From positions 124,001 through 188,000 of the forward strand of contig ML978144.1 of NCBI GenBank assembly GCA_010015805.1: a DNA stretch of 64,000 nt, written 5' to 3'. The stretch comes from Rhizodiscina lignyota (Eukaryota). Below the pieces are notes generated by a model, which saw only the letters and a program-made list of their open reading frames with translations, did not search any database and had not been told where the DNA came from. Positions within the stretch are counted from its first letter, which is position 1; the number at the start of each line of letters is the position of its first letter. Shown here one piece after another: positions 1 to 31,833 of the stretch. The translations under genes were made by a program, and so were the position numbers.

Positions 1-1588
1 CCTCCTTGCTCTCCTCCTTCTTGCCTCCCTCGTGTCGAAGTCGACGGCGCTTCGGAGCCGGCTGCTCCTCTCCGGGGCTTTGACGGGGTGCATCGCCCTC
101 AGCATCGTGATCGATCTCTGCTCGAGATCTCTTTCGCTGCGAGCGCATGCTGGCCGCCGTCACCTCCACCGGAGAGTGCGCACGCGGGCGCTTCTGCTGC
201 TGCTCAAGTAAGCAATGAAGTCTTGATGATAAAGGGGCTAACCAATCCTTACCCTGGCCCGAACGCCGCCTCCTTCGACCTCCTCTTCCTCCTCATCACG
301 GGGCGCACGGCGACGCTTCAAGGTCGCCAGAGGGACGTCATCGTCGGAGCTGGAGGAGCTGGAGTCGGAGATGACCGGGCGGCGGCGGGGGCGAGGAACA
401 TCGCCATCACCACGAGGTGATGCCCGCCCATAGACATACACCGCCGGAGCGGTGTAGTCCACTTTCTTGTCAAACTGCGCGAGCAGCTTCTTCTTGGTCT
501 TCTCCCACTCCTGCTCCTCCTGCCCCTCCTCCACGTCGGCCTTCTGCAGGTATGGGCTACGCCCAACCTGGAGAGGGTATGCCCGCAAGCTCTGCTTCAT
601 CATCTGCAGGAGCTTGCCCTCTGGCTCCTTCGCCTCGAACGCATCCACCCACCCGCCGTTGACGTGCATCTCCACTTTGGAGCGCACGGTTCGGAGTTTG
701 GCTTGCGAGCCACGGCGGAGCTGTTCATCTGACAGCTTCGGCTCACCAGTTCTGCCCCAGAAGATCTGGAGCAGATACCCTGGTGCGCCGTTGTGGGTGG
801 ATGAGTTCGGGACGGCGCCACCGTACGCCTTTCGCCAACGGATGTTGTTGGCGTCCATTGCGCTCCGCTTCCTCTTGTTGTCTTCTGCCATCGTGTTGGC
901 CTTCTCCTTGTCACTGCCAGTGTTGACTGGTGCCTCAGGGTTTATCCGGTCGATAACATCGTCCACTGAGCAGCAGTTTTGAATCAACATGGCAGTGTAC
1001 CAGCCCTCCTCCTCGCTGCCGATGAGGTTCGGCAGTGGATATGGCACCTCGTTGCCATATCCATCGTCATGGCAGACGACGCGGAGGGGGTTACCAGTTC
1101 GAAGGCTCACCAGATACTTGCCGTCGAGATCCACCAGTAGCTTTGTGGTGGATTTGATCTCTGGCGCGGCAAGCTTGAACATAGACAGAGGAAGGTTTGC
1201 CGCAGTGTAGTCTTGATGCTCCGTGATGAGGTAGGTGCGGTTGTTGCCTTGCCCTGCATGCTGGTTCTTGTGCTCTAAACAGGGAGTTAGGATTGTTTGG
1301 CATCGATATTCGAAAACACCGATGTTACTTACGGATTTGTTCCAGCTCGTTCCATTTGGCAAGGACTTCCGGATAGTTCTTGTACAGCTTGCACACGTCC
1401 TTCTCTATGTTTGTCGGGATTGGATCATCCTTCTTGTCCACAAGAGCGAAGCTATGTGCGCGTTAGTGGAGTTCTCTCAAATTTCTGACTTCCTTTGGAA
1501 GGACTTACGAGTGTCCCAAGCCGCGAAGGTCATGGGTAATGTGTGTTTTCTCTGTCGCGGCGTCGCGCGTTGTTCTTGTTCTACCCAT
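1..1588 (-). CDS. Uncharacterised family paralogue A (multi-exon, 3' end runs off the window)
   Basis: ATG at 1588 (MGRTRTTRDAA...). Two GTAAGT...CTAAC...TAG introns join it in frame to ORF 238..1362, which has the family core YTAANLP...LVDLDGKYLVSLRTG...LPNLIGSEEEGW...DVIDR...RWRKAYGG. A third intron (GTAAGG near 250) leads into an exon that stays open to position 1. The tail is basic (KRRR, KRPR) and acidic. Confidence 0.8.
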
Positions 1589-1645
1589 GTTTCTGGTGTT
1601 TCTGATGTTTGTTGCTGGGCGGGTTTAAGAGTTCTGGGGTTTTCG

Positions 1646-1731
1646 GGAGAGGAGGATATGGAATGAGAAGAGGATGCTTGGTGTCGGTGGAGAGGAGAAT
1701 GTAGAATGAGGAGAGGATGCTTGGTGTCGGT
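1646..1731. repeat. 43-bp direct tandem duplication in the 5' region of paralogue A
   Basis: ggagaggaggatatggaatgagaagaggatgcttggtgtcggt is followed directly by ggagaggagaatgtagaatgaggagaggatgcttggtgtcggt. Confidence 0.9.
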
Positions 1732-4700
1732 GGTGAAGCTGGCAGTCGAAGCTGAGAAGTTGTTGTTTTTGTCAGGTTGACTGAGTGTGGTGTGGGATTG
1801 TGCTTTTGGAACAAGCTCAAGAAAACTCTGCAGAGCTTAGGAAAATTTTGCTGAGCTTGCCGGTGTTGTAGCTATGTCGTCAAGGTGGCACAATGCCAAA
1901 AGTTTAATGCGCAGGGGCCAAGTGTTAAGAGGTGTCAAGAGCTGTCTGGTGTCAAGTGTGGATCATGAGACGCCACAATTGGTGGATCAAGAGCGTGATG
2001 GTTCTGCGAACGATTTGGAGAGTTTGAGAAAGCAGAAGAAGACAATCGGGTTGGACACTCAGTGATTTATTTTGGCTATTCAATGGTGGCTATCTATTGT
2101 TGTTGCTATTGAAGAGACGCGATCTATTGTTGTTTTTCTCGGATGGTGGCCATATGATGGTCGCATGCACCGCGAATCTCACTGGATGACGGAAACTCTC
2201 AATAATGTCGCGGGAATCAGCTTAATCGAAGCCAAATTCGCAGCCTAGGACTTGGAGTTTCCCTTTCAACGATATCACGCAGCTGAAGTACCATATACGC
2301 AAGATTCCAGCGCAGCAACACGTCTCGGTGGTAGATTATCAGAATCAAAATAGCGGAGCGGACAGACTCTCTATAGTCATCACGTGTAGAATTCTTTGGG
2401 CGATACTAGGCGATAAAGACATTAGGAAATCAGAATACGTATCCTTGTGGCTGCTAACCTGTAATTACTACACTATAGACGACGACAAAATTTGTGGGTC
2501 GAATAGTCGTCCATCAGATTAGATTTACTTATCAAAGTAATATGATGACTTTGAATGGCTTAGCGTTTCTTCTGATGCATCCCAGATCGGCTTAGTGGTT
2601 CATCCACTCGACTTCAACAATCTCTTTGTTATTTCAATCATTATTGTTGTGCAGGTGAGCTCTCTTCTTTTGTCAATGTAGAGCTAATAATACTAAACCT
2701 ACAGATCAGATTCATATCAAAACCTACCGCCTACAAGTGTCCCAAATTTAGCCACATCCTTGCCTATCGCGCTAGCTTTGCATACAACAGGAAAGAGTAC
2801 TCGACATCGAGGAGATATATAACATACTCGGTAGAGATGGAGCTCAAAGGCTATGGCTTGATCCTGTTATAAAGACAGTGATCGTTGCTCGGAATTTTGC
2901 TAGTCGGATAGATGCTTGTATCCATCTTTGCTGCGAGTTGGAAGGACAAAGGCTGAGATCCCTGTGGATCTACCTAGTGTATTATACTACTAAAGAGGTT
3001 CCTCTAACAGGTAGTTAAGGATATATCAACTCTATGCTGCCCATTTGAGTCAACCTGCATCAGCGTGGATCAATACATGAACCGCAGTAATTTGACACGT
3101 CAATTGCCGAGTCTCCTCACCAATCAGGGCATTATCCTTTAGACAGCGATATCGATGCGCGCACGACGTATGCCGACTCAGAGGGTCTCCGAGCCATACT
3201 CGGAGCTTTGCACAGCTCGGGCGGTATTTCAATGAAGGGTTTTCGTGCGATTCGAAGCACCACAACTCAGAGTCGCATGTAGTTGGCTTACCTGACTTTT
3301 TTGGTTGGACTTGTGAGCGATCTTCACCTTGCGGAACGCTCTGCGTAACAACCTTGATAACGATCGCTTGGGTGTATAACGATCACCTGTCATCGGCAGG
3401 GTAACGTCTGCGTCAAACCGTAATCTGAATGGGCGTGTCACTGGATTACATGGTACAATTGAAGAGCCGACCCATGTTCGCCACCGCAGTTCACCCTGAC
3501 CTGTTCATGAAAGCAGCGGGCCAAACCAGATGATCATTGACTCGTGTGACGGTCCGGTTCTGGGCATTGTTCATGCTCGGTGCGATAACAAGCATGAAGA
3601 GCCTCCACAGCCTTGTATATCTGCATCGGAAGTAATCCTCTCTCCATCCTCGATTTTTGGGGGTTCCAAAGGCTTAACGCTCGGACTGAGATAGCAATAC
3701 ATTCTGCTTTTCCTCTTCTCGTCCTGGTCCTGTTGTTCTAAGTGATAGCTCTCCTCACGCACGCCGTCAGGCAAACCGACCCCATGAAACAAACAGCCCA
3801 TATACAAACATGTCCGACCCTTTAACGCACTTTAAGCTGTAACAAAATGGAAACACCCAGTTCCCGCCTAAATCACCGCGACGTGTTTAAGTTTCCAAAA
3901 TGTCGGGCATTGCGCTGAATGCCAATCCTTCATCACACGGCAGAGCATTCATCAAACCATCGCGTTCTATCAGCTTGGGATCGACGCAACTTAATCATTA
4001 ATGGAGCAGCGAAGCGCCAGCTGGAGCTATGACATCGATGGTAAATAAAGTAGTGAATTGCTATCTCGAAAGGGACAAGCCTCGTCTTCCTCTAGACTAA
4101 TTGACTCTTTTCGCCTATCAGCCTCGGTAGACTTGGGCGGAAGACACCTGCCAAATGAATGTCGGTGGTCGGCTTTGGTTGTAGGCAAATTGCGCTGTGG
4201 TGATTCTGTTGACCTTGCCCACAAAGACACCTCACATCTGCTCTGAGCTAATGCTGAGCGACCAGTGATCAACACACGACACCAAACTCCCTCTTCTCCT
4301 TCTTGAAATCAATAATTACGCATCCCTCGAGATCGCGAGCTTCAAGAACTTGACCAAGACTGGTGGTTCTACGGGCGGGGTCTAGAACAATCTCCAGGTC
4401 AGAGTTTCTCCATAATGTCTTGATAATGTCTATCACATACTGGGCGGAGCAGCAACGCAAAGGCCGACGAGCCACATGAGGATAGTAGCAGTCTTCATGG
4501 TGAATACCGAGTCGAATCAGGAAAGCTTTGTTTTCAAGAGATAACTCGATCGATAAAGGGGAAATAGATGAGTTCGATAGCTCTGATGAAGCAACTGACT
4601 GTACTATGAACTTGACTGTAGTCTTGATTATTGAATACACGAGAATCGTCGAGGTTTATATACACCTTGGTTAGAGCGCCTGCTAATTAAACTGCTTCTC

Positions 4701-5816: not shown

Positions 5817-6611
5817 ATGGTGCATTCTGCCGATGTACGCTACGCGCGGCTTGAGGACAAAGACTCGGTCAATGAAGACTCGCTGCCCTTTCAGAATCTC
5901 AATCCCCCGAGGAGAGCGCAGTTGCAACAATTGTCACCATACTTCATCATATACTTGTCGCTTTCAAGCATCATCATTATTATCCTGCTAGCCATGCTGC
6001 TTGCCCGAGTCAGCAGGGAGTCGAGAGAGTGTTCGAATTCGAGGCCTTTCAAGACTCCGCTGGGAAGACATTTGGAACTAATGTCTGTTTCTCATCATTA
6101 TGATGAGCTCTGGAAAGATGTTGAAGGGAATTCCAGCGAGATTAATATACCCGATTCAAGCGGCAACAATGCTATGGGAGCAATAGCCATGTAAGTTCTA
6201 TTGCAAGCTCGCGCTACGCGAGAATCGCACTGTTCTAATGGACGACAGGTTTCATCAACTTCATTGTCTCGGAGCATTTCGTCGTATCGTTCAAATGGCT
6301 CGCGTGGAAAACATCACTGGTTATGACATCGAATACGATCGACACTGGCCACACTGTTTCGATTACATGAGGATGGTGAGTTTGTTATCACAAAACTTCA
6401 CCTGAGATTTATTCTTACATCATTATTCTGTTACAAGACTATTCTGTGTTGGGCAGACGATACAGTTGAAAGATATTCTTACGATTTGAACGGAGAGCGA
6501 ACTGATTTCATCGATGGAGCATTTGATCTCAGGCAGTGTGGCAACAACCGAAAGTTGATTGACAAGGTACAGGCTGGTGGAAAAATAGTACATACGAAAC
6601 CGTTTCCCTGA
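5817..6611 (+). CDS. UstYa-like / DUF3328 oxidase (fungal RiPP/cyclic-peptide tailoring family)
   Basis: Three exons: 5817-6190, 6249-6375 and 6438-6611. The product has an N-terminal TM helix (YFIIYLSLSSIIIIILLAMLL), then the two HxxHC motifs MFHQLHCL and HWPHCFDYMR, then ILCWADDTVE...DG...RQC, the typical DUF3328 architecture. Confidence 0.9.
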
Positions 6612-7055
6612 GAAGTCGAACATTTTGGCACAACATCAATTCTAGCAATCGTTTTGAATCTGGGGCCTTCCATATCGCGCGATTTGACTGGACGGCCGGG
6701 TTATAGTCTGAGTGAAGGAGCTTGAAACTTGAGCTGTAGGACAAGGCACAACTCACGCGACGCTACCAGGGCCGAGATCGGTCAAGCAAAGCGTGTATGG
6801 AACGACAAGTCACTGTGACTGTTCTACAATTATTGTAATGGCCCGTCGGGACTTCAAGTTGTCATCATATTATTTGATGCGACCCGTTCCGCCAATCGGC
6901 TATCCAATTGTCCGCCGGCCACCAGGTTGCACTTTCGCAAGCCTAACCCTTTGTAGATAAAGAGACAGACATTTATCCCCATACGTCCTCACGCACTTTT
7001 CTCGACTGATACAAGGTCGATATATTCCGATCACAACTCAATAAGAAAGATCAGG

Positions 7056-8003
7056 ATGACAGCCACACCACAACTGCGTGTCCTTTTCTTCGACGTCTTT
7101 GGGACATGTGTAGCCCAGAGGACGCCAGTAGCGGACGAGCTATGGAGAGCAGCTCGAGAGGCGCTGGAGTCGGATGAGTCGTCGATTAGTAGTGAAGTCC
7201 GAACCAAGGCGACGAAGATGGTATGCCCCAGCTGGTTGAGCACTGCCGTAAAATATAAATTAATTTCTTTCGCAGTCATACGACCAGTGGTTCGAGTTCG
7301 GAGGGGTCGGTAGCTAACGAAATGACATTATCGCCAATTTAAGTGCTAACAGGAGCAGGAATGGAATAATGAGGGCGACAAATTCGTTCGCGGTAGTATC
7401 GCAAAACACGGCACCGTAGACTGGAGAGCAGTCGACAAGCATCGTATTGAATTACTGCCTAAACTCCTCGCACACCGCGGCCTGGTCATTCCACGCGAAG
7501 ATGCCAGCACCTCAGAGCTCCAAGTCGGTGAGGGTTCGCTCTGGAACGAGTCGCAACTCAAACATCTCGGCCTCGTCTGGCACCGTCTAAGCCCATGGCC
7601 CGACACCTCCCGTGGTTTGGATTTGCTTAATAGGCAATTCTCTACCGTAACCCTTAGCAACTCTTACAATGACTTGCTAGAACACCTGGTAGCGCATAGC
7701 AGCATCCCATTTACACGTATTTGCTCCGCCGACATGTTCCAATCCTTCAAGCCGAACCCCAAGGTATATCTCGGAGCGGCAGAGAAGATGGGCGTAAAGC
7801 CCGAGGAGTGTGGGCTTGTGGCCGCGCATCTAAGTGATTTGAAAGGTGCGAAAGCGTGCGGATTCTATACAATATATGTTGAGAGACCGTTGGAGGAAAA
7901 AAACCCAGAGTTGCGAGAGGAAAATATTCCAGATATATGGATTAAAGAGGATGAGGATGGCTTTGTTACTCTCACTGAGCGTTTAGGAATACAAGTTGAT
8001 TAA
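7056..8003 (+). CDS. HAD-superfamily hydrolase (haloacid dehalogenase type II-like)
   Basis: Motifs LFFDVFGT, WHRLSPWPD, TLSN, KPNPKVYLGA and LVAAHLSDLKGAKACG. Introns at ~7221-7275 and ~7306-7352. Confidence 0.9.
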
Positions 8004-8199
8004 ATGATTGTCGACAAATATTCCAATAGCTTCTAAATCATTCTTCTAGACCTTGCGGCCTTTCATTCCGAAGACCACAAATTTGATGTTGTGGTTTCTC
8101 CGGTGAATAGACTGGCCGGCTCAGGCTTCGTCAGGGATGTCAAATGCTGGCATCTATATCTATTGGCGTAACCATTGCGCTGAAAGTGCGACGGAAGAC

Positions 8200-10120: not shown

Positions 10121-11925
10121 CTATATGTAGAGACCAGGTGCCTGAAGCGCGAGGTGCTGACCACAGAGGCGCACAGATGACTAGTCCTCGGCATTAGCAA
10201 TAGCCTTTTTATATTTATAGCAAAGGAGTATACACACCGCGAAGACAGAGGAGTTTCCAGGGAGAATAAAGGGCACTTGAGTGTTGCCCAGAGCCAGGTA
10301 TTCGTTCCAGTAGTGGTTATGGATGAACCTGATCATAGTGTCGATGGCGTCCTGCGGAGAAATGAGGCCGTCGTAGAGCAGGCCGTTAACGTAACGCACA
10401 ATGCTGACGAACCATTGCACAGGATTGGCAACTACGAACTCGAGATAGTAGACAGTCTCGAGGCGAGGGTAGTTGCCGTTTAGAGCTCCAGCTTGCTGGG
10501 CAGGGAGCATGAGAGCGTTTCCATGAGGGAACTGAGCGGCAGCAGCTTGCTGAGCCGGGAGCTGAGCCGGGACAGTGGCAGGAGGGTATGCGGAATGATG
10601 AGCGTGCGCCAGGGGCTGGTACTGGATGGAATTTTCAGCCCGAGGCAGCGTAAGTTGCTGCGACGGATGGACTGGAGGTGCGTAGGAGTAGCTCTCGCTA
10701 CCATCATCATCCTCGGTCCAATCTTCGCCTTCTTCGGTCTCATTCTCGTCTTCTTCAGTTTCATCATCATCGTTCTGTTGGTGCACAACCTGCGATCCGA
10801 GGGCATAGTGGGGGAGAGGAGGCATATGGAAGTGCCAGCCCTGCAAGGCATAGAAGCGCCTGATGACTGATTCCAGCCGGACACTTGGCATCCTGGCAGA
10901 CTGCAAATCGGCAACAGGATACACAATGGTGCCTCCTGGCTGGCGAATGGCACTCCCATCGATGCTGATGTTCCATACGGTGTTCTGAAGAGAATTAGCT
11001 TATTGTAAAGGTACTTCGATGATCAACTACTCACGTGGAACACTTTGCGCCAGTTGAACTGTCCCTCAGAATCGACCAGCTTCATGAGCGTTGTGTGGAC
11101 CGTCTGATTGCCTCTGCCACGCCTCTCACGGAAGCACCTGGCATTTGGATGAAATCCAGCAGCGAGCCTACGCCAGCGCCAGTCCTTATTGCCTAGGGAG
11201 CGTCGCAACTTCTCCGTATCATCCTTAAGATCCTGGTCATTGTATGGTGGGACCACTTCGTACTGCTTGAGAGGCATGATTCGGTCTATGCAGTCGCGGA
11301 TGTCTGGACCAAACTGGACGAACACTGCCAGACGCCAGCCCTCGACGACAGAAGCGATTGAGTGAGGCAGGAATTCGCCGAAATCCTTGAGGCAGCGTCC
11401 CGTACGAATGCTCTTCATGAAGTTGCCGAGAGGGTCACGGAGGAAGTACTTCTCATCACTTTGGGAGAGGTCTGGGACGCGGATGAAGTTCATGATGTAG
11501 GGAAGCTTGAGCTGGGAGACATCTTTGATCGCCGGTGCGGCGGTAGTCACGTCGTGTGGCTCCCGTCCACTCAATGGAGGATCGGCTATACACAAACTGA
11601 TCAGTATACAAGTGTTTATGTGTCTCTCCGTTCCAAGACAGGACTATGCAAACACTTACTCCAGGCAAGCTCCGGCTTGGTGCGTGAGAAGTAGGCACCT
11701 GTGTCTTTGTAGATCGACACATCTACATCTCCAGCTGGAATATCATCGACTATGTTCTTGACAGGCTTCCAGACGAGCTGTTTGGAGTAACATAGCATAG
11801 GACACAAGCATTAGAATCTTGGTGACACTTACATTGAGTCCGTCAATGCATTTGGTCACATTATTGCGATGCGGTGAGTAGCATATCGCCACAAAGCCCA
11901 CGGGGACTTCGTGGATGTTTGCCAT
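10121..11925 (-). CDS. Uncharacterised family paralogue B (multi-exon)
   Basis: ATG at 11925 (MANIHEVPV...). GTAAGT/GTGAGT introns join ORFs 11616-11807, 11023-11595 and 10181-10924. The core reads VSQLKLP...LRDPLGNFMKSIRTGRCL...LPHSIASVVEGW...DCIDR...RWRR...NTVWNISIDGSAIRQP, followed by an acidic tract and a Q/P-rich region. The last exon and stop are uncertain. Confidence 0.78.
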
Positions 11926-14339: not shown

Positions 14340-16277
14340 ATGGCTTCTTCATCCGCCTCCAATCCGAGCAATGCACCGCCAAGGCCAGAGAGCGACGTTG
14401 ACAATCACACCTCGAGCACTCATGCCTTCGGTGCCTTGGACACGGGCGCATTAGGAGTCGAGTGGTGGGAGTGGAAAATCAAGGACTACAACTCTCTGGA
14501 GACGACGCATCCAGATCCTAATTACCACACATACCATATGAATCTCCTCCGCGAGTCTTTAGGCCTTCCTCTTAAGCCGGACCACTTTTATGACCCCTTC
14601 GGCGACCCCGAAGAGCTCGAACGCATTTACGAATACGCCGATAACCCGGGCGCATCACCGCCAGGGGACATCCAGACCGAGCCAAGAACGGGCAACGGAA
14701 TAGGCCCTAGGATGTCTAGGATGCCGCCAAGTGGAAAGATCATGTGGGCATACGAGAAGTATGCTGATCCTGCCAACGGGGACCTCGATGAGCTACGACA
14801 ACCGAAGCTTGTGTACGTCGACGAAGAGGGAGAGGAGTGGGAAGAAGAAAGTGAGGATGAGGAGGAAGAAGAAGATGATGGCTTTCTTGGAGAAGAGTTG
14901 GACGGCATAGGCTTAGAGGTGACAGACGATGAAGCGTACGAGACGCTCGACGAAGAGTGTGAGGAGGACAGTACAAGTGATGAATACGAGAGTGAGAGCA
15001 GTGAGGACAAGAAGCCACAAAAGAAAAAGCGTCGGACAACTCATTCCCCAGCCAACTTCTCACAAACTCGACGAGCAGTGGTCGGCTCCACGCGAGCAGT
15101 GGCCGGCTCCACGCGAGCAGCTCTTGCGAGAGCTCCTCTGTCCTCCTCCGCAGTTCCATCAAATCCTCAAGCTCAGAGCGGGAATGCGCATCTTCTGACG
15201 ACTGATATCCTAACGCCGCAAGAGTATCAAAACCGCATCAACCAGGGGGACACTCCTGAGGCGACGGAGGTCCTGGCTGGCCTAGGGGAGTTCTGGTTGC
15301 CGGTCGAGAGTCCAGATGAAGAGCCTGGTCCGGTCGACCTGGTTGCTGATTTTGGCCTCCGAGCAGACGAGCTAAGAGCCATCACGAATCGCCCGTACCC
15401 CTTCCCACACAAGCGGAGCGTTATCCAGGATCGCACGCTGTACATCAGCGGTTTGGACCAGGTCACAGAGGACAATCTCCCACCATTCATGGCTGATATC
15501 GTGGTGGACAAGGTGCAGGCGCCATACCTAAGAGACTCACACGGCAACTACCTGAAGAGCGTGCGGACCGGCCAATGCTTTCGGAACTTTGGCAACCTGG
15601 TGCCCAACGGGATCTCCAGTGTCGATGCTGGCGCCTTTTTCGCTCTCTTTGAGCACCTGGGGGCTACCTTCACCAGCGATATTATGTCCCGCGTGAATCT
15701 GACTGTATATCTTGGGGGGTCGCCCGTCAATAAATGGCGCAACAAGGCCGAGCGGTGGAGGTGCAGCTATGGAGGACTCGGTCCCAATCTGAAGTCCAAA
15801 GGCAAGAAGCCGAGCGAGAAGGCCAACGGAACGATGGACCGGCTCAAGGACAACGCAGCCCGTACCCTTCACCGCGTCGCGTGGGATGTCCATCCGGATG
15901 GTCGCCACATGCGCCAGCCACGTCCAGCCAAGATGCAAAACATGGCGGCCTCGAACTACCAGGGCCTGTGGTATGATGTGCCACCTGCTCGCGAGGTGGA
16001 CGGTGTCTTGCTCACCGTCACCAAAAATACCACAAAGTACCTGCCAAAGCTGAGCAGCTACCTGCAAGCCCATCCCAATGCCCGTGTTCTCGGTGGTGCT
16101 AGAGCTGCTGCTGCTGCTGCTGCTGCTGCTGCGGTGTCGGAGCCTGATGACGCTGAGATGGCCGAAGACGAAGACGAAACGGAGGAGGACCTTGGTGAAG
16201 AGGGTACTGATGAAGAGGGCGAGGTAATTGATGAGGCTGAGGAGGGCCCTGGCGAACAGAGCGTCTACGGCCTATGA
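14340..16277 (+). CDS. Uncharacterised family paralogue C (apparently intronless)
   Basis: Long ORF with first ATG at 14340. It has acidic tracts and an NLS-like KKKRR. The core reads VTEDNLPP...YLRDSHGNYLKSVRTGQCF...VPNGISS...G...DIMSR...RWRCSYGG...VAWDVHPDGRHMRQP. A (GCT)n poly-Ala run lies near 16103-16130. Confidence 0.85.
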   Translation: MASSSASNPSNAPPRPESDVDNHTSSTHAFGALDTGALGVEWWEWKIKDYNSLETTHPDPNYHTYHMNLLRESLGLPLKPDHFYDPFGDPEELERIYEYADNPGASPPGDIQTEPRTGNGIGPRMSRMPPSGKIMWAYEKYADPANGDLDELRQPKLVYVDEEGEEWEEESEDEEEEEDDGFLGEELDGIGLEVTDDEAYETLDEECEEDSTSDEYESESSEDKKPQKKKRRTTHSPANFSQTRRAVVGSTRAVAGSTRAALARAPLSSSAVPSNPQAQSGNAHLLTTDILTPQEYQNRINQGDTPEATEVLAGLGEFWLPVESPDEEPGPVDLVADFGLRADELRAITNRPYPFPHKRSVIQDRTLYISGLDQVTEDNLPPFMADIVVDKVQAPYLRDSHGNYLKSVRTGQCFRNFGNLVPNGISSVDAGAFFALFEHLGATFTSDIMSRVNLTVYLGGSPVNKWRNKAERWRCSYGGLGPNLKSKGKKPSEKANGTMDRLKDNAARTLHRVAWDVHPDGRHMRQPRPAKMQNMAASNYQGLWYDVPPAREVDGVLLTVTKNTTKYLPKLSSYLQAHPNARVLGGARAAAAAAAAAAVSEPDDAEMAEDEDETEEDLGEEGTDEEGEVIDEAEEGPGEQSVYGL

Positions 16278-18508: not shown

Positions 18509-19777
18509 ATGGCTACCTCTCAAACTCAGCAACCGGCATCAACCCCTAAGGTTTACGTCGAGCAGCACGGTGGCACGCGCGGCATAGCCGGCAACGTTAC
18601 ATCTTTCCTTGCCGTTGACGAGTTCGTGACGATCAACAATTTACCTCCCCAGGCTGCGGTGTACGAAATGCGTTCTCTGGAGCAGCGCGCTCGCTCGCTT
18701 GGGTCTGCAGTGTGGAAAGGCACGACAAATCCTGTCACGAAGGAGCCGTTCAAAGCTGGACTTTGCCCTGGTTCGATATCCTCCGAGATTGAAGGATACA
18801 TGATCCATCTCTACCAGCTCAGAGGATTCGATCTTGCCGAAATCATCGGTCGCATACCCGTTGAGGCGTGGAGCAAAGGCCGCAAGGCACGACCGCCTAT
18901 AAGTGTCATGAAAGGCAATCTGTCCATGCGCGCTCAGCGATATCGTACGAGAGTCGGCGTCTTGGATCACTTCCCCGGAGATCTCAGAAAATATACGACA
19001 GAGAAGAAGGGATTCAAGGAAGACATGGCGAAGATCAGCCGTCTAAACGACTTACAGTTACTCTATGGAGTACATTGGGACATTCATAGCAATGGGTCGA
19101 TGTCTCAGCCCTACTTTGGCTCGCGACGTGGCGAGGGCATACCGCTCGGATTTAACCCTCCCAGGTATGCATTGCCAGAGCCAAAGGAGGTGAGCGATCG
19201 TGTGCGGAAGCTCCTCGAATCTTCGGGCCGTCGCGTGCCTACTCTGGCAGATCTCCCTGTCATTCATGCACAGATATCTTGGACTGGCCCACCGTACAAC
19301 CCAAGGCCTCAGGCACAGCCTAATCTACCCGCACCAACATCGCATCCGGCAAGACAATCCCATCCGCCCATGCCTCACAACGTAAACGACAATCGTGGCT
19401 TCACAAGCTCTGACAACAAATCAATGTCAAAGGATGAATTCTTCGCCCTCTTCGACAATGTCCCGAACAAGAAGCGAGCGCGGGATGAGCCCGTTGAGGA
19501 GGACGACTCGGACGAGGCAAACCCGTCCCACAAGCGCACCAAAGTCAGCGTTCCTACTTCAACGCCTGGCGAAGCAACTGCGAAACCTCAGGAGACTTCT
19601 GGAGGCCTTCCTAATGACACAATTAGCTCAGACTCAGTGGCGATTCCAAATCAGGACACTCTCCTTCTTGATCCGGCACTGGACGACATCTTCGAGAAGT
19701 GGGAAAAGGAGGCTAAGCTTGCGGAGGAGCTCGACAAGGCTAATGGATTCAAGGCGGTCTGGATGTTTTTGCTGTGA
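18509..19777 (+). CDS. Uncharacterised family paralogue D (intronless)
   Basis: 422-aa ORF. The core reads VTINNLPP...CPGSISSEIEGY...RGFDLAEIIGR...NLSMRAQRYR...LLYGVHWDIHSNGSMSQP...EVSDRVRKLLESSGRRVPTL. Bipartite NLS-like KKRAR...HKRTK. Confidence 0.85.
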   Translation: MATSQTQQPASTPKVYVEQHGGTRGIAGNVTSFLAVDEFVTINNLPPQAAVYEMRSLEQRARSLGSAVWKGTTNPVTKEPFKAGLCPGSISSEIEGYMIHLYQLRGFDLAEIIGRIPVEAWSKGRKARPPISVMKGNLSMRAQRYRTRVGVLDHFPGDLRKYTTEKKGFKEDMAKISRLNDLQLLYGVHWDIHSNGSMSQPYFGSRRGEGIPLGFNPPRYALPEPKEVSDRVRKLLESSGRRVPTLADLPVIHAQISWTGPPYNPRPQAQPNLPAPTSHPARQSHPPMPHNVNDNRGFTSSDNKSMSKDEFFALFDNVPNKKRARDEPVEEDDSDEANPSHKRTKVSVPTSTPGEATAKPQETSGGLPNDTISSDSVAIPNQDTLLLDPALDDIFEKWEKEAKLAEELDKANGFKAVWMFLL

Positions 19778-20766: not shown

Positions 20767-21314
20767 ATGAGTAGCGAGGACGTCTCCGCTGGAGCTACTC
20801 CCGGATGGCCTGTGCCGCAAGTTTTCCCAAAATGATTATAGCTCCTTGTCGACAATACTGACATCAGTACGTCAACTCTGCATAATCTTAGTATCTCATC
20901 AAGTGCATCCACTTCAAAATACAAGCAACAGAGTCTCAAATTCAACATCCAACCGTATAAAATAACAACCCCCAACAACCCCAACAACCCCATCAATACC
21001 AAACCACAGGATGCGAAGACTAGTTGGGTGCTGTGGCCTCAAAAGGGCTTAAGCAGAGAATATCAGGCAGATCTCGAGGCTAAAATCCAAGCTGTTCTTG
21101 ACGTCGGGATCAAGTTAGAAAAATGCGTCATCTTCCCTGAGGAAGAGGGGATCAGATATTGGGCGGCATCTGCCACGCGAGAGCAAGCCGAGAAAGTCAA
21201 ATCACTACCAAATGTTTGTCATCGCCGGTATTTGCATTAAGCAGTCTAAGTTCTGACGTGTGTTATCAGATGCTTACCCTCGAAGAGGAGTGCGAGGTCG
21301 GTTCCTTCGATTAA
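20767..21314 (+). CDS. Small ~146-aa protein with a C-terminal region resembling a subtilase propeptide / peptidase inhibitor I9 domain
   Basis: Exons 20767-20816, 20868-21213 and 21270-21314 total 441 nt in frame. The first intron is GC-AG (GCAAGT...CTGAC.ATCAG) and removes two in-frame stops. WVLWP...LEAKIQ...GIRYWAASATREQAEKVKSLPN.LTLEEE resembles I9-like prodomains (family call by eye). Confidence 0.55.
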
Positions 21315-22918: not shown

Positions 22919-23108
22919 CCATTACAGATCTTGATCAATTTTCTCTGCACGCCTTAACCATTATCAACCGAACCAATTCTCTCTCAAGCTCTTGACGATT
23001 ACCGACACCGATCACTCTTCCTTCCTGCTCTTGACCCGTACCGACCTCGACGAATTCTCTCTCAAGCTCCCGATCATTACCAATCTCGACCAGCTTTCCC
23101 TCAATTAG
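22919..23108. repeat. Five-unit ~39-bp minisatellite just upstream of paralogue E
   Basis: Units start at 22919, 22958, 22996, 23035 and 23074. Approximate consensus ccattaccgacctcgaccaattctctctcaagctcttga. Confidence 0.8.
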
Positions 23109-23132
23109 ATTACAAAGCTATCCAAAGTCAAG

Positions 23133-24313
23133 ATGGCCAAGTCAGTCGAGATGGCAAAATCAGTCAAGGCGGCAAAGTCAACGAAAAAGACACATGAGCA
23201 CCGATCTGCGTACAAGCAGTCAACGCTCTCGGGCAGGATTACTCGTCCAAGCAAGAAGACCAAAGGGCACCAGAAGGAGAAGAAAGCCCGTCGGCTGCGC
23301 AACAACGTTTTGAGTAGCTACAGTAAGCCAAACTCCACCGCTCTTGATCGCAACCATGTTACGAGACATTCTCCATAGCTGTTCCTCAAGGACGCGGGTC
23401 GAACAAGACAGAGTTCCTTCCAAGAGATCGAGACTTCAGTATCGACAATCTGCCTGTGCAGTTCGCAAGCCTGCGACCAAAGAAGATGGAGGGCCATGAC
23501 ACTACAGACTTCCCTCACGGCGGCGCTTACGATATGAGCTCCCGTCCAGGCAAAGAACATGAGCCTCTAAGGCCACTTCCAATCCCGCGACGCATTTGGT
23601 CAGAAGTGCAGGGCGAGTGGTTGCTCCTGTACCAGCTTTACGGAGCAGAGATGGCGGATTTCCTGGATCGTTGGAATCCCGACCAGCCGTTGCCCACGCG
23701 CAACAGGCTGAATATGCTCATGCAGCGCGTTCGCGAGCGCATCCTCATCATGGCGCCGACGGAGAGGAAAGAAGAGGTGCCGAAGAAGGACCTCGACGTC
23801 ATCAAAGGGCTCTACTTCGTCGCCCCCCACGACTTCGACGAGCAGCTCCTGCGCTCCACGAGCTGGAATCTCAGCGGTCCGATGGCCGACCGGAAGATGC
23901 AGCGACGCCGCCCAGCCGAGCTGGGCATCCATGTCAGCAAGGACGAAGAGAACTACAACGGAGAGAGGGTCGAGGCTCCTCCGTTGGAAGAGCTGAGCGA
24001 GAACATGAAGAAGATTGTCGAGAAGGCCGGCTTCACCGTCCCTACGGTGGAGGGCTTCAAGCGCGGGGTGGTCTTCAACGCCCCTGGTCGGCAGATCTTC
24101 TTCTCGTCAGACTCTCAGCGGAAGCACCATAGCGGGTGCAGACCCGGCCTTGTCGACATGGAGGAGGCAGAAGGCGTGGAGGAGGACGACGACCGTTCGC
24201 AGACGGTGGAGATGGAAGTGGAGGAGAAGGAAGAGCTGGAGTACGTGGAGTACCACTCCACGTACAACGAGGCAGAAGGATACGTCTCGTGGAAGGAATG
24301 GTGGGAGGTGTGA
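23133..24313 (+). CDS. Uncharacterised family paralogue E
   Basis: A Lys-rich exon 1 (23133-23322) and a phase-1 intron 23323-23378 lead into TVPQGRG...DFSIDNLP...LPIPRRIWSEVQGEWLLLY...GAEMADFLDRW...NRLNMLMQRVR...FDEQLLRSTSWNLSG. The tail is acidic. Confidence 0.85.
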
Positions 24314-25486: not shown

Positions 25487-27482
25487 ATGGCGACTACCGA
25501 TACGGCGCCATTCGATCCTAGCCCACTGTCTTCCACACTTGCGGCACCATTTCAGGTCGGTTCGACGAAGGGGCCCACGGCTGTTGTGCCGAGTGGCATG
25601 GATTCGCAGGCTTCGCCGGACGAATATGGTAAGTGGTATGCTGTTAAAACGATCCTGCAATAAAGTAGCTAAGTGTGATATAGTGGTGCCCCAAGGGACC
25701 GGAGAAGACCATACCTCATTCATGGCCAAGTATCAAGACTTCAGCGACGATAATCTTCCGCCCGAGTTGGCATGGATCATCGAGAGCCGCCCTGAAAACC
25801 ATCCTCACCGATTCACACCTCTGAAAGCTTTTACCCCGATGGGCACTCCGATTGGTACACATGCGTCAACGACAGAAGGCGTCCCTTCGAAGAGGCTTCC
25901 AATTCCAGAGCGCATCTATTCCAAAGCCTCCGAAGCATGGATCATTCTCTTCATGACCCAGGGAGCTGATCTGAAGGATATTATGGCCAGGTGGCATCCT
26001 AGCATCCCCAAAGCGCGTGTGGGGACCTTGAGCCAGCAGTTACAGCGCTGGCGGATAAAGGCCCTGATTCTGGCCAACAACTCGCGACCCGATTCGAAGC
26101 AGTCGAGAGACATCATCCGAAAACTCCATCAAATCGATCCTGATAATTTCGATGAACTTCTGTTACGAGGTGTTAGCTGGAAGCTGAGTGGGTCCATGGA
26201 GCAACGAAAGATGACGCAGAGGACATCCGCAGAACTAGACCACCCGCCGTCAAGTGTGCCGAACTATCGCGGAAAAGCGTATGATGCTCCGCCGCTCGCA
26301 GAGGTGTCGGGAAAACTTAGGAAAGTTGTTAAGGCAGCTGGTTTCAATATTCCCACAGTTGTCGGATTCTTAGACGGACAAAAGGTGAACCCGAGAGTCG
26401 TGTCCCAGGGCAACCTGAGCCCTTCAACTCCACAGAGTGGCGTTCTGCAAACAAGCGTTGTAAGCGCTGCGGTAAACATCAACAAATTCAAGGCGCTGAC
26501 GCATTTTCAGGCAAAATCCACGCTACCGAACCAATCATCATCCCCAATATCTGCGCAGGAGGTCGAAAATTTCCTGGGTTCGCCTCAAGCAATTGCAGAC
26601 GACAGCCCACATTCGAATGGCAGCTTTGCGCTACCACACGTCCAGGAGGAGGATTTGGAAAAGATTAGCGCGACCTTGGTGAGTGCTCTAGCCAACGCGA
26701 ACTCTGAACCTAGGAGCTATGGCCATTATAGTCAACAACACCCCCCGTCGACCAATGAAAATGCTCCTCTGTTCGCGAGCCAGGATGGAAATGAAACTTA
26801 CGATAGCCTTCCTCTCCCTGGAGCACATATTTTTGCTCATTTAAACCCCACACCTGCTATTGTAGTCGAACAAGCGTCACCGGAACCTCCTCAAAACAAT
26901 ACACTGAGCCCACCGCTCTGGGGTGGAGTGATGCCTGGACGAGAAGTCCCTCGACCAGTTGGTAAGCGAATGGCAGAGGAAATGGAGGGCGCGACGCATG
27001 CGCTTGGAAGCTATTCCAAGTATCAGAAGGTAGTAGCCACAAGCATCAGGGCTCACGGAATGTTATTGACAATCAGGCAGGGGGTCGATTCAAACCGCCA
27101 CAGAGCTGCGCACATTCCAGAGATAGAAGAGCCGGCACAAGCGGACTTGGAGTCGATGATAATGAACTTCCACAACCGACCTCGACTTGTGCCGAAATCA
27201 CGCATCGTCGCAGTACCCCAAGACGCCTCATCACCTGTTTCAGACGCACCGCAACATAGCGATGTCGACGCGATGAGTCTCCCAGTTATGCCTCCATTAC
27301 CAACCGAAGATGACGAACTACTACCGATCAACCCGGAGCTTGCGCCACAAGAGTTGGAATGGGAATACATGCGTGAGGGTATCGATATTCGTTCAGAAGA
27401 CATAATTGGTTTTAGCTTTGATAACTGTCCGGGGGATGATTGTGAGGATGTCAGAGAAGAGATTGATGACTCTTCAGACTGA
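25487..27482 (+). CDS. Uncharacterised family paralogue F (closest relative of E)
   Basis: ATG at 25487 and a phase-1 intron 25629-25683 lead into VVPQGTG...DFSDDNLPP...LPIPERIYS...GADLKDIMARW...QRWR...FDELLLRGVSWKLSG...AGFNIPTVVGF. The tail is long and low-complexity, with a possible further intron near 27030-27080. Confidence 0.85.
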
Positions 27483-28650: not shown

Positions 28651-30617
28651 ATGTCGACTGCAACCATGCCAGGAAGCTCCCAGCGTAACACTCTTTCTTG
28701 GATCACATCGTAGGTCTCCCCTTCCTCATCTCCACGAGACACAGGCAATCCACGCCATCGTTATCAGTCAATAGAGTGCAAGCGCTGATATGTTTCCAGC
28801 TATGGCGAAATAATCACACCCCCCGCAGCGTCGACATACAGCGAGCGAGCTGTCAATGCTACCGGAAATTATCGTTGCCAACCCATACGTATCGGCCAAG
28901 AGCATGCTGACTTTGGATATTTGAAATGGCGCACCCACGGTCCAGATGGTGATGATGCGCGTGCGGCCCTTCTTGGTATCAGTACGCCCGAAGACTTAAT
29001 CCGTGCCTTTGTGATGAACCCAAGCCGACAAGATCTCGATAATATCTTCATGGACTGGGTCCCCGGTCGCCTCGAAGGCTCTCGACAGACAGACGAAGGC
29101 CGCGTACCGTTGAATGCACGATCCCATATCACATACATGGAGGCTCGGAGGGAAAGACTTGGACTGCAGCCTCTCGACTTGGCCCAGCAGCCGTTCACTT
29201 GGGCAGGTTCAGATCGAGATTGGTATATGCGACCAGGTGCCGATGCAAGTGTCTTGCATGCTAAGCGGACTCGTGATGACAATGGCTCCACAACCGTCCA
29301 AGACATCGAGTCAAGGCCAGAATGGAATGGCCGGACCCTCTTCAAAGGAAAACAAGGCGGCCCAAAAATGAAGAGACAGATTGGCCTGAAAGTCCAAGGT
29401 GGATCTCATCAGCCATCAGTGGACTATCTTCAGCTCTCACAGCGAACTGTCATACCAGGTGGACCGTTTGCGTATAGTAAGTCTTGAAAGTCGATTAGTT
29501 CTAATAGAAGCTGATGGTGGCAGTCGATCCTCCGCGACAAGGATACCTTGAAGGTTCGGACGGCGAGCCTCAACCAGACAACGAAAACGTTACGTCGTTC
29601 CATCCCGGTCTGGCCAATATGAGCTGGAGGAACCTGCCAGAGATCATGTACCGATGGCAGCCAACCGACAGAGACACACACCCAGAAGGATCAGAGCCAC
29701 CGCAGATGGAGGACGCAGACGGCCGGCCTATGTTCGATCTAGCGGATCCTAACCATCCAGTGCCCATATTGGATTATCCTTTCCTGCCACATCGTATCTC
29801 GACCGCTGTCACTGGCGAGTGGCTCGAAGTACTTTTCAGACTGAGTGGCGCGCGTATGCCATACAACCAAATACTGGCTCGAATGCCCACACATGTCGTA
29901 CGCCCGACACCCAATTCCATGCAGATGGCGCGGAGCCGAGTAAGAGAGGGAGAGCTGTATCAGTCGACCTGGTGGGCTGACAGACAAAAGTCGGCGAAAC
30001 TCATGGCGGATATTCTTCAAGCAGCCTCAGGTGGGGATCCAGGCATCGCTGATCGGATAGTCAAGACAAATTCGACTCGTGGGATAACTCCGGGACTCAT
30101 TGATCCGGCAAGGCCGAGAGGAGCGGATAACTGGAAACCTTTCACCGGTGAATTCTTGGCCCGGCAAGATGCAAAGAAAGTCTCGCAGTTGAAGAAACCG
30201 TATGAGCGTATCACCAGAGCCGAAACCGCAGAGGGCGGGCGACGAAAGACAAGAGGGCAAACTCGAGCTGCGCTTGAGCTCGTGAATGAAGATAAAGGCG
30301 CTTGGCAAGGCGCGACGAAGAAGCGCAAGCGAGACGAGCCACACAGCGAAAGAAACGCTGCCCACATCGGTGAGGCGAGCACGTCGGGAAGCCCAGAAGG
30401 TGGCAAGGGGAGTGAAGAGCAGAACGGAGACGGCGGCATGAAGGATTGGGGCGTCAAACGCCGTAAATTGAAGATGATCCGGAAACCGTGGCTGGCTCCG
30501 CTCGTGGACGAGTCCGACTCGGACAACGGCGACTTCGATACCCTCGAAGGGATCGCAAAGGTCCGTAGGTCGGGCCTGTACGGTAGTCGGCGAAGATACC
30601 GCTCCTATCGATCGTAG
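28651..30617 (+). CDS. Uncharacterised family paralogue G (most canonical-looking member)
   Basis: Exons 28651-28709, 28800-29476 and 29524-30617 join in frame. The core reads MSWRNLPEIMY...DADGRP...ILDYPFLPHRISTAVTGEWLE...YNQILARMP...NSMQMARSRVR...W...NSTRGITPGLIDP. NLS-like KKRKR and KRRK. Confidence 0.85.
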
Positions 30618-30768
30618 AGCAGACGTCTATGCCAACGAGCGACCAAGACCAGGGCCTCCTCCTCCGTCATCATCTTTCGATGATGATATGGGGGAGCGAG
30701 GCCTGATGGTGCTCAATGGATCTGCGAGTTGAAGAGGTTCGTCAACGGACCTCGTTGCCCAAGTTGGC

Positions 30769-31833
30769 CGCTCGTTGGCGTAGAAAGTCTGCTCCACGGT
30801 CGAGAAGAGCGTGGTCTTCGCCCTCCGATTTACGGATCTTTGTGACCACGTCGAGTTCGGGCTCGTCAACAAGCGCAGCCAACCATGGATTTCCCATCAT
30901 CCTTCAATTTACGGTGTTTGTTTTCTTTTCTTTTTCTTTTCTTGCTTCTCGAGATAGACGGACGGTCGACGGACGTCGACGGATAAGAAATTCGGAGGAT
31001 TTTCGGCCTTGGCATGGGCCGCCCATTTCCGCCCTCAGGCGGTGTCATTTGGAGTTTGGAGTTTTTCTGGACTGTTTCTGTGCTTTGTTTACTTGTTTTT
31101 CTCGCCTTTTGCTTTGCGCGCCATACCGTAGAAATCGCAATAGACAGCGGGACTGTCTTCAAGCTTCTGCTCTTCCAATCATGGCGACGACAACAGTATT
31201 CCTCCAAACCGACCATCTTTGTCACCAAAGATGCCTTGACTCTAATTTGGATTGTGACCATGGTTGTCTCAAAGAGCTGTTGTTGTTAAACAGCCAATCC
31301 TGTCCAGCTCATGGCTATCCCTCTTTCCATGTCGTTGTCCTGTTCTCTCAGAGCTGTTTATCTTAGTATTCTTTAAAAAGCCAGTTACTCAGATGCGTAT
31401 TTGTCGAGTACAATATACTTCAAGCAGCAAGCAGAACTGGACTTGGGCCTTACGGCAACAGTAAGCTCTCGGGATCGGTTCCGACATCTTATGTCGAATG
31501 ATAGATGGATCCTGCGGTAATCAGTGTGCATGAAAACCTGCTGATGGATTGGGTTCAGCCTTCGGTAACTGGTTGGGAAGTAGCAGAAGATGTCGCTCAT
31601 CAGTTGCCCAAACTGATGTGTTCATAAGGAAGGATTGAATTTGATGCATTAAAAATTCTCTGTGTGTTTCCTCCGCTCCTTGTTTCCCACCACCACTGGT
31701 AGCCTGACTCGTGTCGGCTCAAACTATCCGGACGTAGCTCAAGTATGACAGTGGGTAGTCTCGGGTTCCCGATGGGCGTGGCAAGCACGGAGCACAAATA
31801 ATTTCTACTCGCTAATACAATTGAGTACATCAA
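30769..31833 (-). pseudogene. Decayed inverted (tail-to-tail) copy of the 3' part of paralogue G
   Basis: The reverse complement of 30769-30919 aligns to 30456-30641. Further minus-strand fragments match G: RLPTVILELRPDSL..HESGYQWWWETR vs RMPTHVVRPTPNSM..EGELYQSTWWADR, QLMSDIF vs KLMADIL, and TPPEGG..KKRKR..KHRKLK vs TAEGG..KKRKR..KRRKLK. It carries many stops and frameshifts. Confidence 0.7.

What the first reader, a model, noticed from the sequence alone, without database searches (positions are those of the whole stretch)
1..31833. Array of seven highly divergent paralogues (plus one dead copy) of an uncharacterised, probably nuclear protein family
Seen: seven genes that each look like unrelated hypotheticals share one collinear ~150-aa core. 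They are A (<1-1588 -), B (10121-11925 -), C (14340-16277 +), D (18509-19777 +), E (23133-24313 +), F (25487-27482 +) and G (28651-30617 +). Block 1: YTAANLP / VSQLKLP / VTEDNLP / VTINNLP / FSIDNLP / FSDDNLP / MSWRNLP. Block 2: LPNLIGSEEEGW / LPHSIASVVEGW / VPNGISSVDAGA / CPGSISSEIEGY / IPRRIWSEVQGEW / IPERIYSKASEAW / LPHRISTAVTGEW. Block 3: DVIDR / DCIDR / DIMSR / EIIGR / DFLDR / DIMAR / QILAR. Block 4: RWR / RWR / RWR / RYR / RVR / RWR / RVR. A later W...QP motif occurs in B, C and D. Outside the core the proteins are disordered, with acidic tracts and NLS-like basic clusters. Inference: this is a locally expanded, fast-diverging family of nuclear proteins in a TE- and pseudogene-rich island. 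That pattern is typical of genes in conflict or recognition (allorecognition, meiotic drive, genome defence, chromatin targeting). I recognise no named Pfam domain or function.
Basis: partly seen in the sequence, partly recalled or inferred. Interest (0 to 1): 0.88.

Follow-up and report, generated by a model that had tools for sequence, protein, structure and literature searches.

The report
Conserved array of undescribed fungal proteins
Seven neighbouring genes of the fungus Rhizodiscina lignyota are ancient copies of one undescribed protein family whose folded core resembles nothing solved so far, and similar gene arrays occur in other fungi.

Summary
The core observation holds. All seven ORFs carry the four motif blocks. 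A profile built only from 141 relatives in other organisms finds exactly these seven ORFs in the window (E 1e-40 to 4e-21) and no eighth copy. The "dead copy" and the "TE- and pseudogene-rich island" were not confirmed.

The family is small: 210 of 1.84 billion cluster representatives match. Every member that carries an organism name is a Pezizomycotina fungus, annotated only as "hypothetical". There is no Pfam match and no PDB sequence match.

The seven copies are not a recent local burst. A single-clade tree is rejected (AU p 1.5e-5), and most copies have closer relatives elsewhere. A metagenome contig whose nearest named relatives are Eurotiomycetes carries three different subfamilies in tandem.

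Best reading (about 0.45): old, linked paralogues of a new nuclear nucleic-acid- or chromatin-binding domain. The conflict or allorecognition reading has no support here.

The parts
1..1588 (-). Gene A. It runs off the left end of the window. The family core is at 598-1245.
   Evidence: The public model P0006 (625 aa) maps to 1588..2, and residues after 473 lie outside the window. The core comes from the external HMM at E 4.2e-21.
10124..11925 (-). Gene B. The core is at 11113-11565 and continues after an intron, with the W...QP strand at 10937-10975.
   Evidence: The public model P0007 (522 aa) was mapped onto the window. External HMM E 1.3e-25. Motif position.
14340..16277 (+). Gene C, a single exon of 645 aa. 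The core is at 15426-16058, preceded by a long acidic tract and a KKKRR cluster.
   Evidence: The ORF is identical to the public model P0004. External HMM E 9.2e-35. Composition.
18509..19777 (+). Gene D. The core is at 18590-19252.
   Evidence: The ORF equals residues 1-422 of the public model P0005. External HMM E 2.1e-31.
23133..24313 (+). Gene E. The core is at 23399-24055.
   Evidence: The public model P0002 (374 aa) was mapped onto the window. External HMM E 1.1e-40.
25487..27482 (+). Gene F. The core is at 25704-26363. The stretch folded was 25695-26369.
   Evidence: The public model P0003 = KAF2092616.1. External HMM E 1.9e-35. AF2 pLDDT 87.2, pTM 0.82.
25917..26072 (+). Central three-helix unit of F (model residues 75-126: helices 80-88, 93-98 and 109-123). 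The third helix carries the invariant R118 and R120.
28666..30617 (+). Gene G. The core is at 29574-30116. The stretch folded was 29574-30170. G belongs to the other, larger half of the family tree.
   Evidence: The public model P0009 was mapped onto the window. External HMM E 1.5e-30. AF2 pLDDT 85.9, pTM 0.79. Tree.

Best explanation
The region holds seven old paralogues of an undescribed protein family. Every member that carries an organism name comes from Pezizomycotina fungi.

Each protein has one globular, mostly basic domain set in long disordered acidic or basic tails. About 165 aa of the domain are shared by all members, and about 220 aa in the A-F type. The predicted domain has three parts. 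An N-terminal arm (D.T.F.P...NLP) packs onto a helical body. The centre is a three-helix unit: P..I[ST]S..EGW helix, D...R helix, then a variable loop and a long R..R.R helix. A helical hairpin follows, and in A-F a small beta-sheet as well.

I infer that the proteins are nuclear and that the arginine-rich three-helix face binds nucleic acid or chromatin, with the tails serving as effector or NLS regions.

The array arose by ancient tandem duplications. The physical order A,B,C | D,E,F | G mirrors the tree. It has been kept in linkage rather than produced by a recent burst.

Shown here: family membership, the confident shared fold prediction, the lack of any known relative, the age of the paralogues, and the recurrence of arrays. 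Inferred: nuclear location, nucleic-acid binding, and any joint function of the array.
For: Family and array.
- An external HMM finds exactly the seven ORFs. Pairwise BLASTP links them all.
- The profile search gives 210 hits at E <= 1e-3, 31 at E <= 1e-10 and 8 at E <= 1e-30 among 1.84e9 representatives. Of the 150 listed, 7 are the window's own gene models. Two (P0012, P0017) are repeat proteins with 14-15 matched stretches; I dropped them as false positives.

Fold.
- F core: pLDDT 87.2, pTM 0.82, from 84 sequences. G core: pLDDT 85.9, pTM 0.79, from 90 sequences. F and G are 19-22% identical.
- Both models show the same order of elements. F has helices 23-26, 80-88, 93-98, 109-123, 135-147 and 149-158. 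G has helices 23-26, 81-90, 97-101, 113-128, 137-152 and 156-165, plus one extra short helix at 32-35.

Hints of binding.
- The most conserved family columns are P64 (100% of 145 rows), T7 (98% of 116), P22 (95%), R92 (95%), D88 (94%), R116 (85%) and R114 (82%), in profile numbering. No conserved H, C or K set typical of an enzyme is seen.
- The median pI of 148 cores is 9.1, and 72% are above 8.
- K[KR]x[KR] clusters occur in 5 of 7 window proteins. The tails are 11-23% D+E and 30-43% S/P/G/Q/N/T.

Age and linkage.
- B pairs with P0013 (97*), A with P0019 and P0067 (97*), D with P0014 (98*), C with P0008, P0010 and P0016 (94), and G with P0036 (94), next to P0029 from Candelina. A, B and C share a 10-row group (93) and D, E and F a 6-row group (86).
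- Holding the seven copies as one clade is rejected (AU p 1.46e-5).
- L001 has three members on one strand within 8.3 kb. Each is nearest to a different subclade: P0073/P0056 (Paecilomyces), P0110 (Thermoascus, 68% identity) and P0053 (Uncinocarpus).
- Pseudovirgaria P0022 and P0034 have consecutive accessions and lie on one contig. Chaenotheca P0039 and P0062 lie on a contig of the same length, with locus tags 000233 and 000245.
Against: - The loop between the second and third helix is 10-11 residues long in F and G and much longer in A. A classical HTH has a tight turn there.
- Two of the seven window cores are acidic: E has pI 6.0 and G 5.4. G was measured on the public model, which lacks 17 residues.
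- F and B have no K[KR]x[KR] cluster.
- No Pfam DNA-binding family matches any of 84 members, even at E <= 10.
- There is no expression, localisation or binding data. The seven upstream regions share no motif beyond chance.
- The tree is a quick LG+G4 search on 144 columns and came with long-branch warnings. I ran the AU test after I had seen the free tree.
Confidence: 0.45

Rival explanations
1. The domain is a protein- or histone-binding module rather than a nucleic-acid binder, as SANT- or Clr5-type three-helix modules in silencing factors are. The proteins would act as chromatin or transcription cofactors, or as scaffolds.
For: The ESM Atlas feature search on the F core put Clr5 (PF14420) clusters first, at 0.85 and 0.84 with 171 and 167 shared features, and all ten best named hits were of one family. 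The conserved hydrophobic or aromatic positions W74, M/I93 and F/W/Y115 lie 19 and 22 residues apart. From memory, that resembles Myb/SANT spacing. The acidic cores of E and G fit a non-DNA partner better.
Against: The same Atlas search on the C core gave no usable hit. By the tool's own figures a score of 0.85 is only a lead. No member matched the Clr5 or Myb/SANT Pfam models: 0 of 84 at E <= 10, 0 of 7 and 0 of 79. No SANT or Myb chain is among the listed structural rows.
Confidence: 0.25
2. The array would be a fast-evolving, locally expanded family engaged in genetic conflict or recognition, such as allorecognition, meiotic drive or genome defence.
For: The paralogues are very divergent (19-40% core identity). 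The family is small and multi-copy: 210 representatives in 1.84e9 proteins, with arrays in several genomes.
Against: A single clade of the seven copies is rejected, and most copies have closer relatives from other sources. The three genes of the L001 array belong to three different old subclades. No HET, NACHT, NB-ARC, transposase or other conflict-linked Pfam domain occurs in the family or the intergenic ORFs. There are no repeats and no AT-rich blocks; GC is 0.46-0.56 per 2 kb. No population data were available, so presence/absence polymorphism and positive selection remain untested.
Confidence: 0.1
3. The family derives from, or travels with, a mobile element. It could be a stand-alone DNA-binding arm of a recombinase or transposase, or cargo of a giant element.
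Against: All these matches are at noise level. No recombinase, transposase or reverse-transcriptase domain and no terminal repeat lies in the 64-kb window or in L001. The copies are old and divergent, not near-identical. The flanks are housekeeping genes.
Confidence: 0.08
4. The domain is an enzyme of a new fold.
For: A confident globular fold has near-invariant polar residues: T7, D88, R92, R114 and R116.
Against: The conserved set is dominated by Pro, Arg, Thr and Asp, without a conserved His, Cys, Lys or Ser triad or a metal-binding pattern. Long disordered tails with NLS-like clusters are unusual for metabolic enzymes. No enzyme family matched by sequence or fold.
Confidence: 0.07

Closest known systems
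Helix-turn-helix DNA-binding domains (phage repressors, ParB/KorB, StbA, resolvase and TetR N-terminal domains)
   Same: A three-helix unit (F residues 75-126) superposes on them over 38-51 residues at rmsd 2.0-2.8 A. Its long third helix carries conserved arginines. Most cores are basic.
Clr5 domain (PF14420), an N-terminal module of fission-yeast Clr5 and of many ascomycete proteins
   Same: Both are ascomycete-specific small helical modules. Clr5 clusters were the nearest named clusters to the F core by language-model features (0.85).
   Different: No member reaches the Pfam model even at E <= 10 (0 of 84). The C core gave no Atlas hit. This domain is three to four times longer. What Clr5 does is recalled from memory. 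I saw five papers that hold the term only as a search listing and did not read them.
Myb/SANT three-helix repeats
   Same: Three helices are built on spaced hydrophobic or aromatic positions: W74, M/I93 and F/W/Y115. The R-[WFY]-R in helix 3 recalls the basic-Trp motif of Myb recognition helices (recalled, not tested).
   Different: There is no Pfam Myb or SANT hit and no such chain in the structural lists. The loop lengths differ. The only PDB sequence hit, to the ISWI HAND-SANT-SLIDE fragment, is not significant (E 0.4) and, by recalled domain limits, lies mostly in its spacer region.
Conserved arrays of paralogous regulators (for example Hox clusters or tandem transcription-factor arrays)
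   Same: Distinct old paralogues are kept next to one another, and gene order mirrors the tree.
   Different: No regulatory function, co-expression or collinearity has been shown. The comparison is by analogy only.

Membership tests
Clr5 (PF14420) | A match to the Pfam Clr5 model at or near its gathering score | tested here: not met
   0 of 7 window proteins at E <= 1. 0 of 79 top relatives at E <= 0.001. 0 of 84 members at E <= 10.
Clr5 (PF14420) | Remote similarity by profile-profile comparison or by features | tested here: inconclusive
   The F core is nearest to Clr5 clusters at 0.85, but the C core gave no usable hit. I had no Clr5 alignment or model, so hhalign could not be run.
Myb/SANT | A match to the Pfam Myb or SANT models | tested here: not met
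   No such family is listed for any member.
Myb/SANT | Three helices with regularly spaced aromatic core residues, and structural superposition on solved repeats | tested here: inconclusive
   The spacing W74 - 19 - M/I93 - 22 - F/W/Y115 is similar. No Myb or SANT chain is among the rows listed, which does not exclude one.
Classical helix-turn-helix | Two helices joined by a tight turn of 3-4 residues, the second being the recognition helix, with structural similarity to solved HTH domains | tested here: inconclusive
Fungal allorecognition or NLR-type genes (HET, NACHT, NB-ARC and similar) | Presence of a HET, NACHT or NB-ARC domain, or of repeat domains | tested here: not met
   None is present in the seven proteins or in 79 relatives.
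Fungal allorecognition or NLR-type genes (HET, NACHT, NB-ARC and similar) | High polymorphism or presence/absence variation between strains | not testable with these tools
   Only one DNA run holds the stretch, and no fungal population data are held.
Transposable element or giant mobile element | A transposase, recombinase or reverse-transcriptase gene, terminal repeats, or near-identical copies | tested here: not met
   0 transposon Pfam families in 92 intergenic ORFs and none among the larger ORFs of the rest of the window. No inverted or long direct repeats. The copies are 19-40% identical.

The most novel reading that the evidence does not exclude
The core is a new DNA- or chromatin-binding fold, seen so far only in Pezizomycotina fungi. 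Its distinct subfamilies have been kept as multigene arrays since before the fungal classes that carry them separated: seven genes in the Dothideomycete Rhizodiscina and three in a contig whose nearest named relatives are Eurotiomycetes. On this reading the paralogues work as a set, co-regulated or as hetero-oligomers, in a developmental or chromatin programme that is not yet recognised.
Probability: 0.3. Interest if true: 0.75.

Novelty: new variant of a known kind. Interest (0 to 1): 0.6.

Why it matters
Fungal-specific regulator folds such as velvet, WOPR and APSES each opened a field once they were recognised (this comparison is recalled, not tested here). This family has a confidently predicted domain with no Pfam model and no structural neighbour. 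It also has an unusual genomic habit: distinct old paralogues stay side by side in at least two genomes that fall in different parts of the family tree.

If the domain binds DNA or chromatin, it adds a new regulator class in Pezizomycotina fungi. Species of the genera Aspergillus, Paecilomyces and Botryosphaeria carry it. It would also offer a rare fungal case of a conserved paralogue cluster, in which the reasons for linkage can be studied.

If the domain does not bind DNA or chromatin, it is still a well-defined candidate for a new Pfam family and for structure determination.

Tried and rejected
- Whole genome of the window: not held.
- Pfam on the seven proteins, on 79 relatives and on 84 members at E <= 10: nothing relevant. 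The only hits were a sub-threshold Ribosomal_60s match on C's Ala/acidic tail, a sub-threshold BET match in P0038, and bacterial repeat domains in the false positives P0012 and P0017.
- PDB by sequence: A2 gave only AMBP at E 0.29. A3 gave only ISWI at E 0.4. Both were rejected as chance.
- Foldseek against PDB for both models and against BFVD for F: no match at E <= 0.001.
- The search for homologous proteins: the F core in 'near' mode gave one hit, P0001. A3 in 'longer' mode searched 911-2600 aa and found none. A2 in 'longer' mode returned only the window's own proteins.
A closer set, A5, worked. Searching the full record behind L001 failed because it is not held, so the array there may be longer than three genes.
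- RNA evidence: no RNA holder is listed, only one DNA run.
- Shared upstream motif in the 700 bp before the seven starts: the best 7-mers occur in 5 of 7 regions and the best 8-mer in 4 of 7. Those are the commonest outcomes in 200 random control sets.
- Homodimer test of the F core: verdict 'no answer'. The alignment was not used and the fold was uncertain in that run.
- Earlier notes of this scan: none for this genome or sequence.
- Literature: 'Clr5 domain' returned 5 papers (listing only). 'Rhizodiscina lignyota' returned 11 papers, 10 of them listed; by title and abstract start, none concerns this family. Nine locus tags and accessions of family members returned 0 papers. Supplements were not opened.
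- Dead copy: looked for and not found.
Full report
**Source and layout.** The window is a stretch of a 228,971-bp contig of Rhizodiscina lignyota (Dothideomycetes, Aulographales). Gene F equals KAF2092616.1, 'hypothetical protein NA57DRAFT_62328'. Their spans agree with the public gene models when these are mapped back (P0006=A, P0007=B, P0004=C, P0005=D, P0002=E, P0003=F, P0009=G).

**The observation.** Every quoted motif is present. The seven Block-1 strings were found by exact search. Blocks 2-4 were read in the translations. The W...QP motif is in C, D and, after an intron, B.

The similarity is far beyond chance:
- In all-against-all BLASTP at a proteome-sized search space, 11 of 21 pairs gave a hit. 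Nine of these, at E <= 2.4e-4, connect all seven.
- A profile built only from 141 relatives that are not encoded in the window scores the seven ORFs at E 1e-40 to 4e-21. It scores nothing else among 1,651 six-frame ORFs of the whole 64 kb.

Two side claims fail:
- No eighth 'dead' copy could be found by either HMM or by tblastn with 148 family cores. The isolated 'FDSDNLPP' at 2349-2329(-) has nothing of the family after it.
- The region is not rich in transposons or pseudogenes. Of 92 intergenic ORFs scanned, two hit Pfam (a UstYa-like gene and a HAD hydrolase) and none hit a transposon family. There are no inverted or long direct repeats. GC stays at 0.46-0.56 per 2 kb.

**The family.** A profile of the seven cores, searched against 1.84 billion cluster representatives, gave 210 proteins at E <= 1e-3, 31 at E <= 1e-10 and 8 at E <= 1e-30.
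- Of the 150 listed, seven are the window's own models. Two are repeat-rich proteins with bacterial domains, which I dropped as false positives.
- 38 of the 150 cover the whole 216-position profile, and 90 cover only the N-terminal part, ending between positions 115 and 189.
- No Pfam family matches the window proteins, 79 relatives or 84 members at E <= 10. No PDB chain matches by sequence.
- I looked up 30 clusters; 15 carry an organism name, and all 15 are Pezizomycotina annotated only as hypothetical or predicted proteins.
  - Placed in Dothideomycetes: Rhizodiscina, Lepidopterella, Pseudovirgaria (two proteins), Botryosphaeria, Zopfia, Aulographum, and Viridothelium/Trypethelium.
  - Placed in Eurotiomycetes: Aspergillus nanangensis, Thermoascus crustaceus, Uncinocarpus reesii and Paecilomyces variotii.
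  - Candelariomycetes: Candelina. Coniocybomycetes: Chaenotheca (two proteins).
  - The classes of four species were checked; the rest are recalled.
- The other 15 clusters are unnamed assembly or metagenome records (one of them, P0004, is the window's own gene C).
- Searches for nine locus tags or accessions found no paper.

**The fold.**
- AlphaFold2 on the F core with 84 aligned sequences gave pLDDT 87.2 and pTM 0.82.
- On the G core, the most distant paralogue (19-22% identity to F), with 90 sequences it gave pLDDT 85.9 and pTM 0.79.
- Both models start with an extended N-terminal arm and a short helix just after the NLP motif.
- Three helices follow (F 80-88, 93-98, 109-123; G 81-90, 97-101, 113-128), then a helical hairpin (F 135-147, 149-158; G 137-152, 156-165). 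G has one extra short helix (32-35) between the first helix and the three-helix unit.
- F adds three strands, which hold the W...Q motif, and a last helix.

Of the residues invariant in the seven copies, D95 (conserved in at least 90% of the 84 sequences of A3) lies in helix 2, R99 follows it directly, and R118 and R120 lie in helix 3. P71 and I74 lead into helix 1.

Neither model has a structural neighbour:
- Foldseek found nothing at E <= 0.001 in PDB or BFVD.
- The weak rows for F almost all align residues 75-126 to helix-turn-helix DNA-binders.
- The C-terminal half was hardly sampled by these rows and could not be folded alone, so I make no claim about it by itself.

**Function (inferred).** In favour of nucleic-acid or chromatin binding in the nucleus:
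- The cores are basic: median pI 9.1 for 148 cores, with 72% above 8.
- The conserved residues are Arg, Asp, Thr and Pro rather than a catalytic set.
- The arginine-bearing long helix is the third helix of the only unit that resembles DNA-binders.
- The tails are acidic or low-complexity, and 5 of 7 proteins have K[KR]x[KR] clusters.

Against it:
- The structural resemblance is at noise level.
- The loop between helix 2 and helix 3 is long and variable.
- The cores of E and G are acidic, and F and B lack the basic clusters.
- No DNA-binding Pfam family is hit.

A language-model feature search put Clr5 clusters nearest to F (0.85) but gave nothing for C. That is a lead only.

**History of the array.** In a tree of 136 cores, A, B and C fall in one group and D, E and F in another, matching their order on the chromosome. 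G lies in the other, larger half of the tree.
- B, A, D, C and G each pair with proteins from other sources. Three of those pairings have SH-aLRT of 97-98.
- Only E and F are each other's nearest relatives.
- Forcing the seven into one clade costs 235.5 log-likelihood units (AU p 1.46e-5).
- Caveats: it was a quick search on 144 columns, long-branch warnings were issued, and I ran the test after seeing the tree.

The copies therefore predate the separation of the organisms that carry their closest relatives. G groups with a protein from Candelina, a different class.

**Arrays elsewhere.** A 335-kb metagenome contig (L001; L002 and L003 gave the same ORFs and scores and count as one observation) carries three family genes on one strand within 8.3 kb.
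- Each is nearest to a different subclade, with best named relatives in Paecilomyces, Thermoascus (68% identity) and Uncinocarpus.
- They sit between a sugar transporter and glutathione synthetase.
- Pseudovirgaria has two members with consecutive accessions.
- Chaenotheca has two members twelve locus tags apart, on a contig of the same length.
- A D-like protein and an E-like protein from an unnamed assembly both list a 24,760-bp contig.

Linked arrays of distinct subfamilies are thus a recurring trait of the family.

**Verdict.** This is not a fast local expansion in a repeat-rich island, and nothing ties it to conflict or recognition.

It is an undescribed family, seen so far only in Pezizomycotina fungi, with a confidently predicted domain that has no known relative. 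It is organised in old, conserved paralogue arrays. My committed mechanism is nuclear nucleic-acid or chromatin binding through the arginine-rich three-helix face, at a confidence of about 0.45. I rate it 'new variant of a known kind' because I judge it about even odds (my estimate, not a computed value) that the central unit belongs to the broad helix-turn-helix-like world. If it does not, the domain is new outright.

Noticed in passing
window 29940-29990 (+): The public gene model of G (P0009) splices out 17 residues (VREGELYQSTWWADRQK) that are in frame in the continuous ORF. These residues align with the family's conserved R.R helix and the following W. The annotated intron is probably wrong.
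   Followed up: partly
window 20887-21216 (+) and 32070-32315 (+): The public models of D and G each attach a last exon across a gap of about 1.1 kb and 1.5 kb respectively. Neither added piece hits Pfam. They may be mis-joined separate small genes.
   Followed up: no
window 22972-23102: Three tandem copies of a 39-bp unit (62-74% identity to the first copy) lie just upstream of the start of gene E at 23133.
   Followed up: no
window 1646-1731: A 43-nt tandem duplication (91% identity) lies just upstream of the start of gene A at 1588.
   Followed up: no
window 5817-6402 (+) and 7350-8000 (+): Two genes outside the family lie between A and B. One is UstYa-like (PF11807, E 3e-8), with an N-terminal hydrophobic segment in the ORF before it. 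The other is a HAD-type hydrolase (E 5.5e-8).
   Followed up: no
window 2329-2349 (-): An isolated 'FDSDNLPP' resembles Block 1 but has no other family motif around it. It is most likely chance.
   Followed up: yes
L001 18699-20573 (+): A large ORF with DUF7607 (E 4e-35) lies 3 kb downstream of the three-gene array in the metagenome contig. Glutathione synthetase lies between them on the other strand.
   Followed up: no
window 32633-64000: The right half of the window holds ordinary genes: CN hydrolase, ABC1 kinase, a GH35 beta-galactosidase split over several ORFs, CoA-transferase III, a short-chain dehydrogenase, a fungal transcription-factor domain protein, an alpha/beta hydrolase and an MFS transporter.
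   Followed up: no
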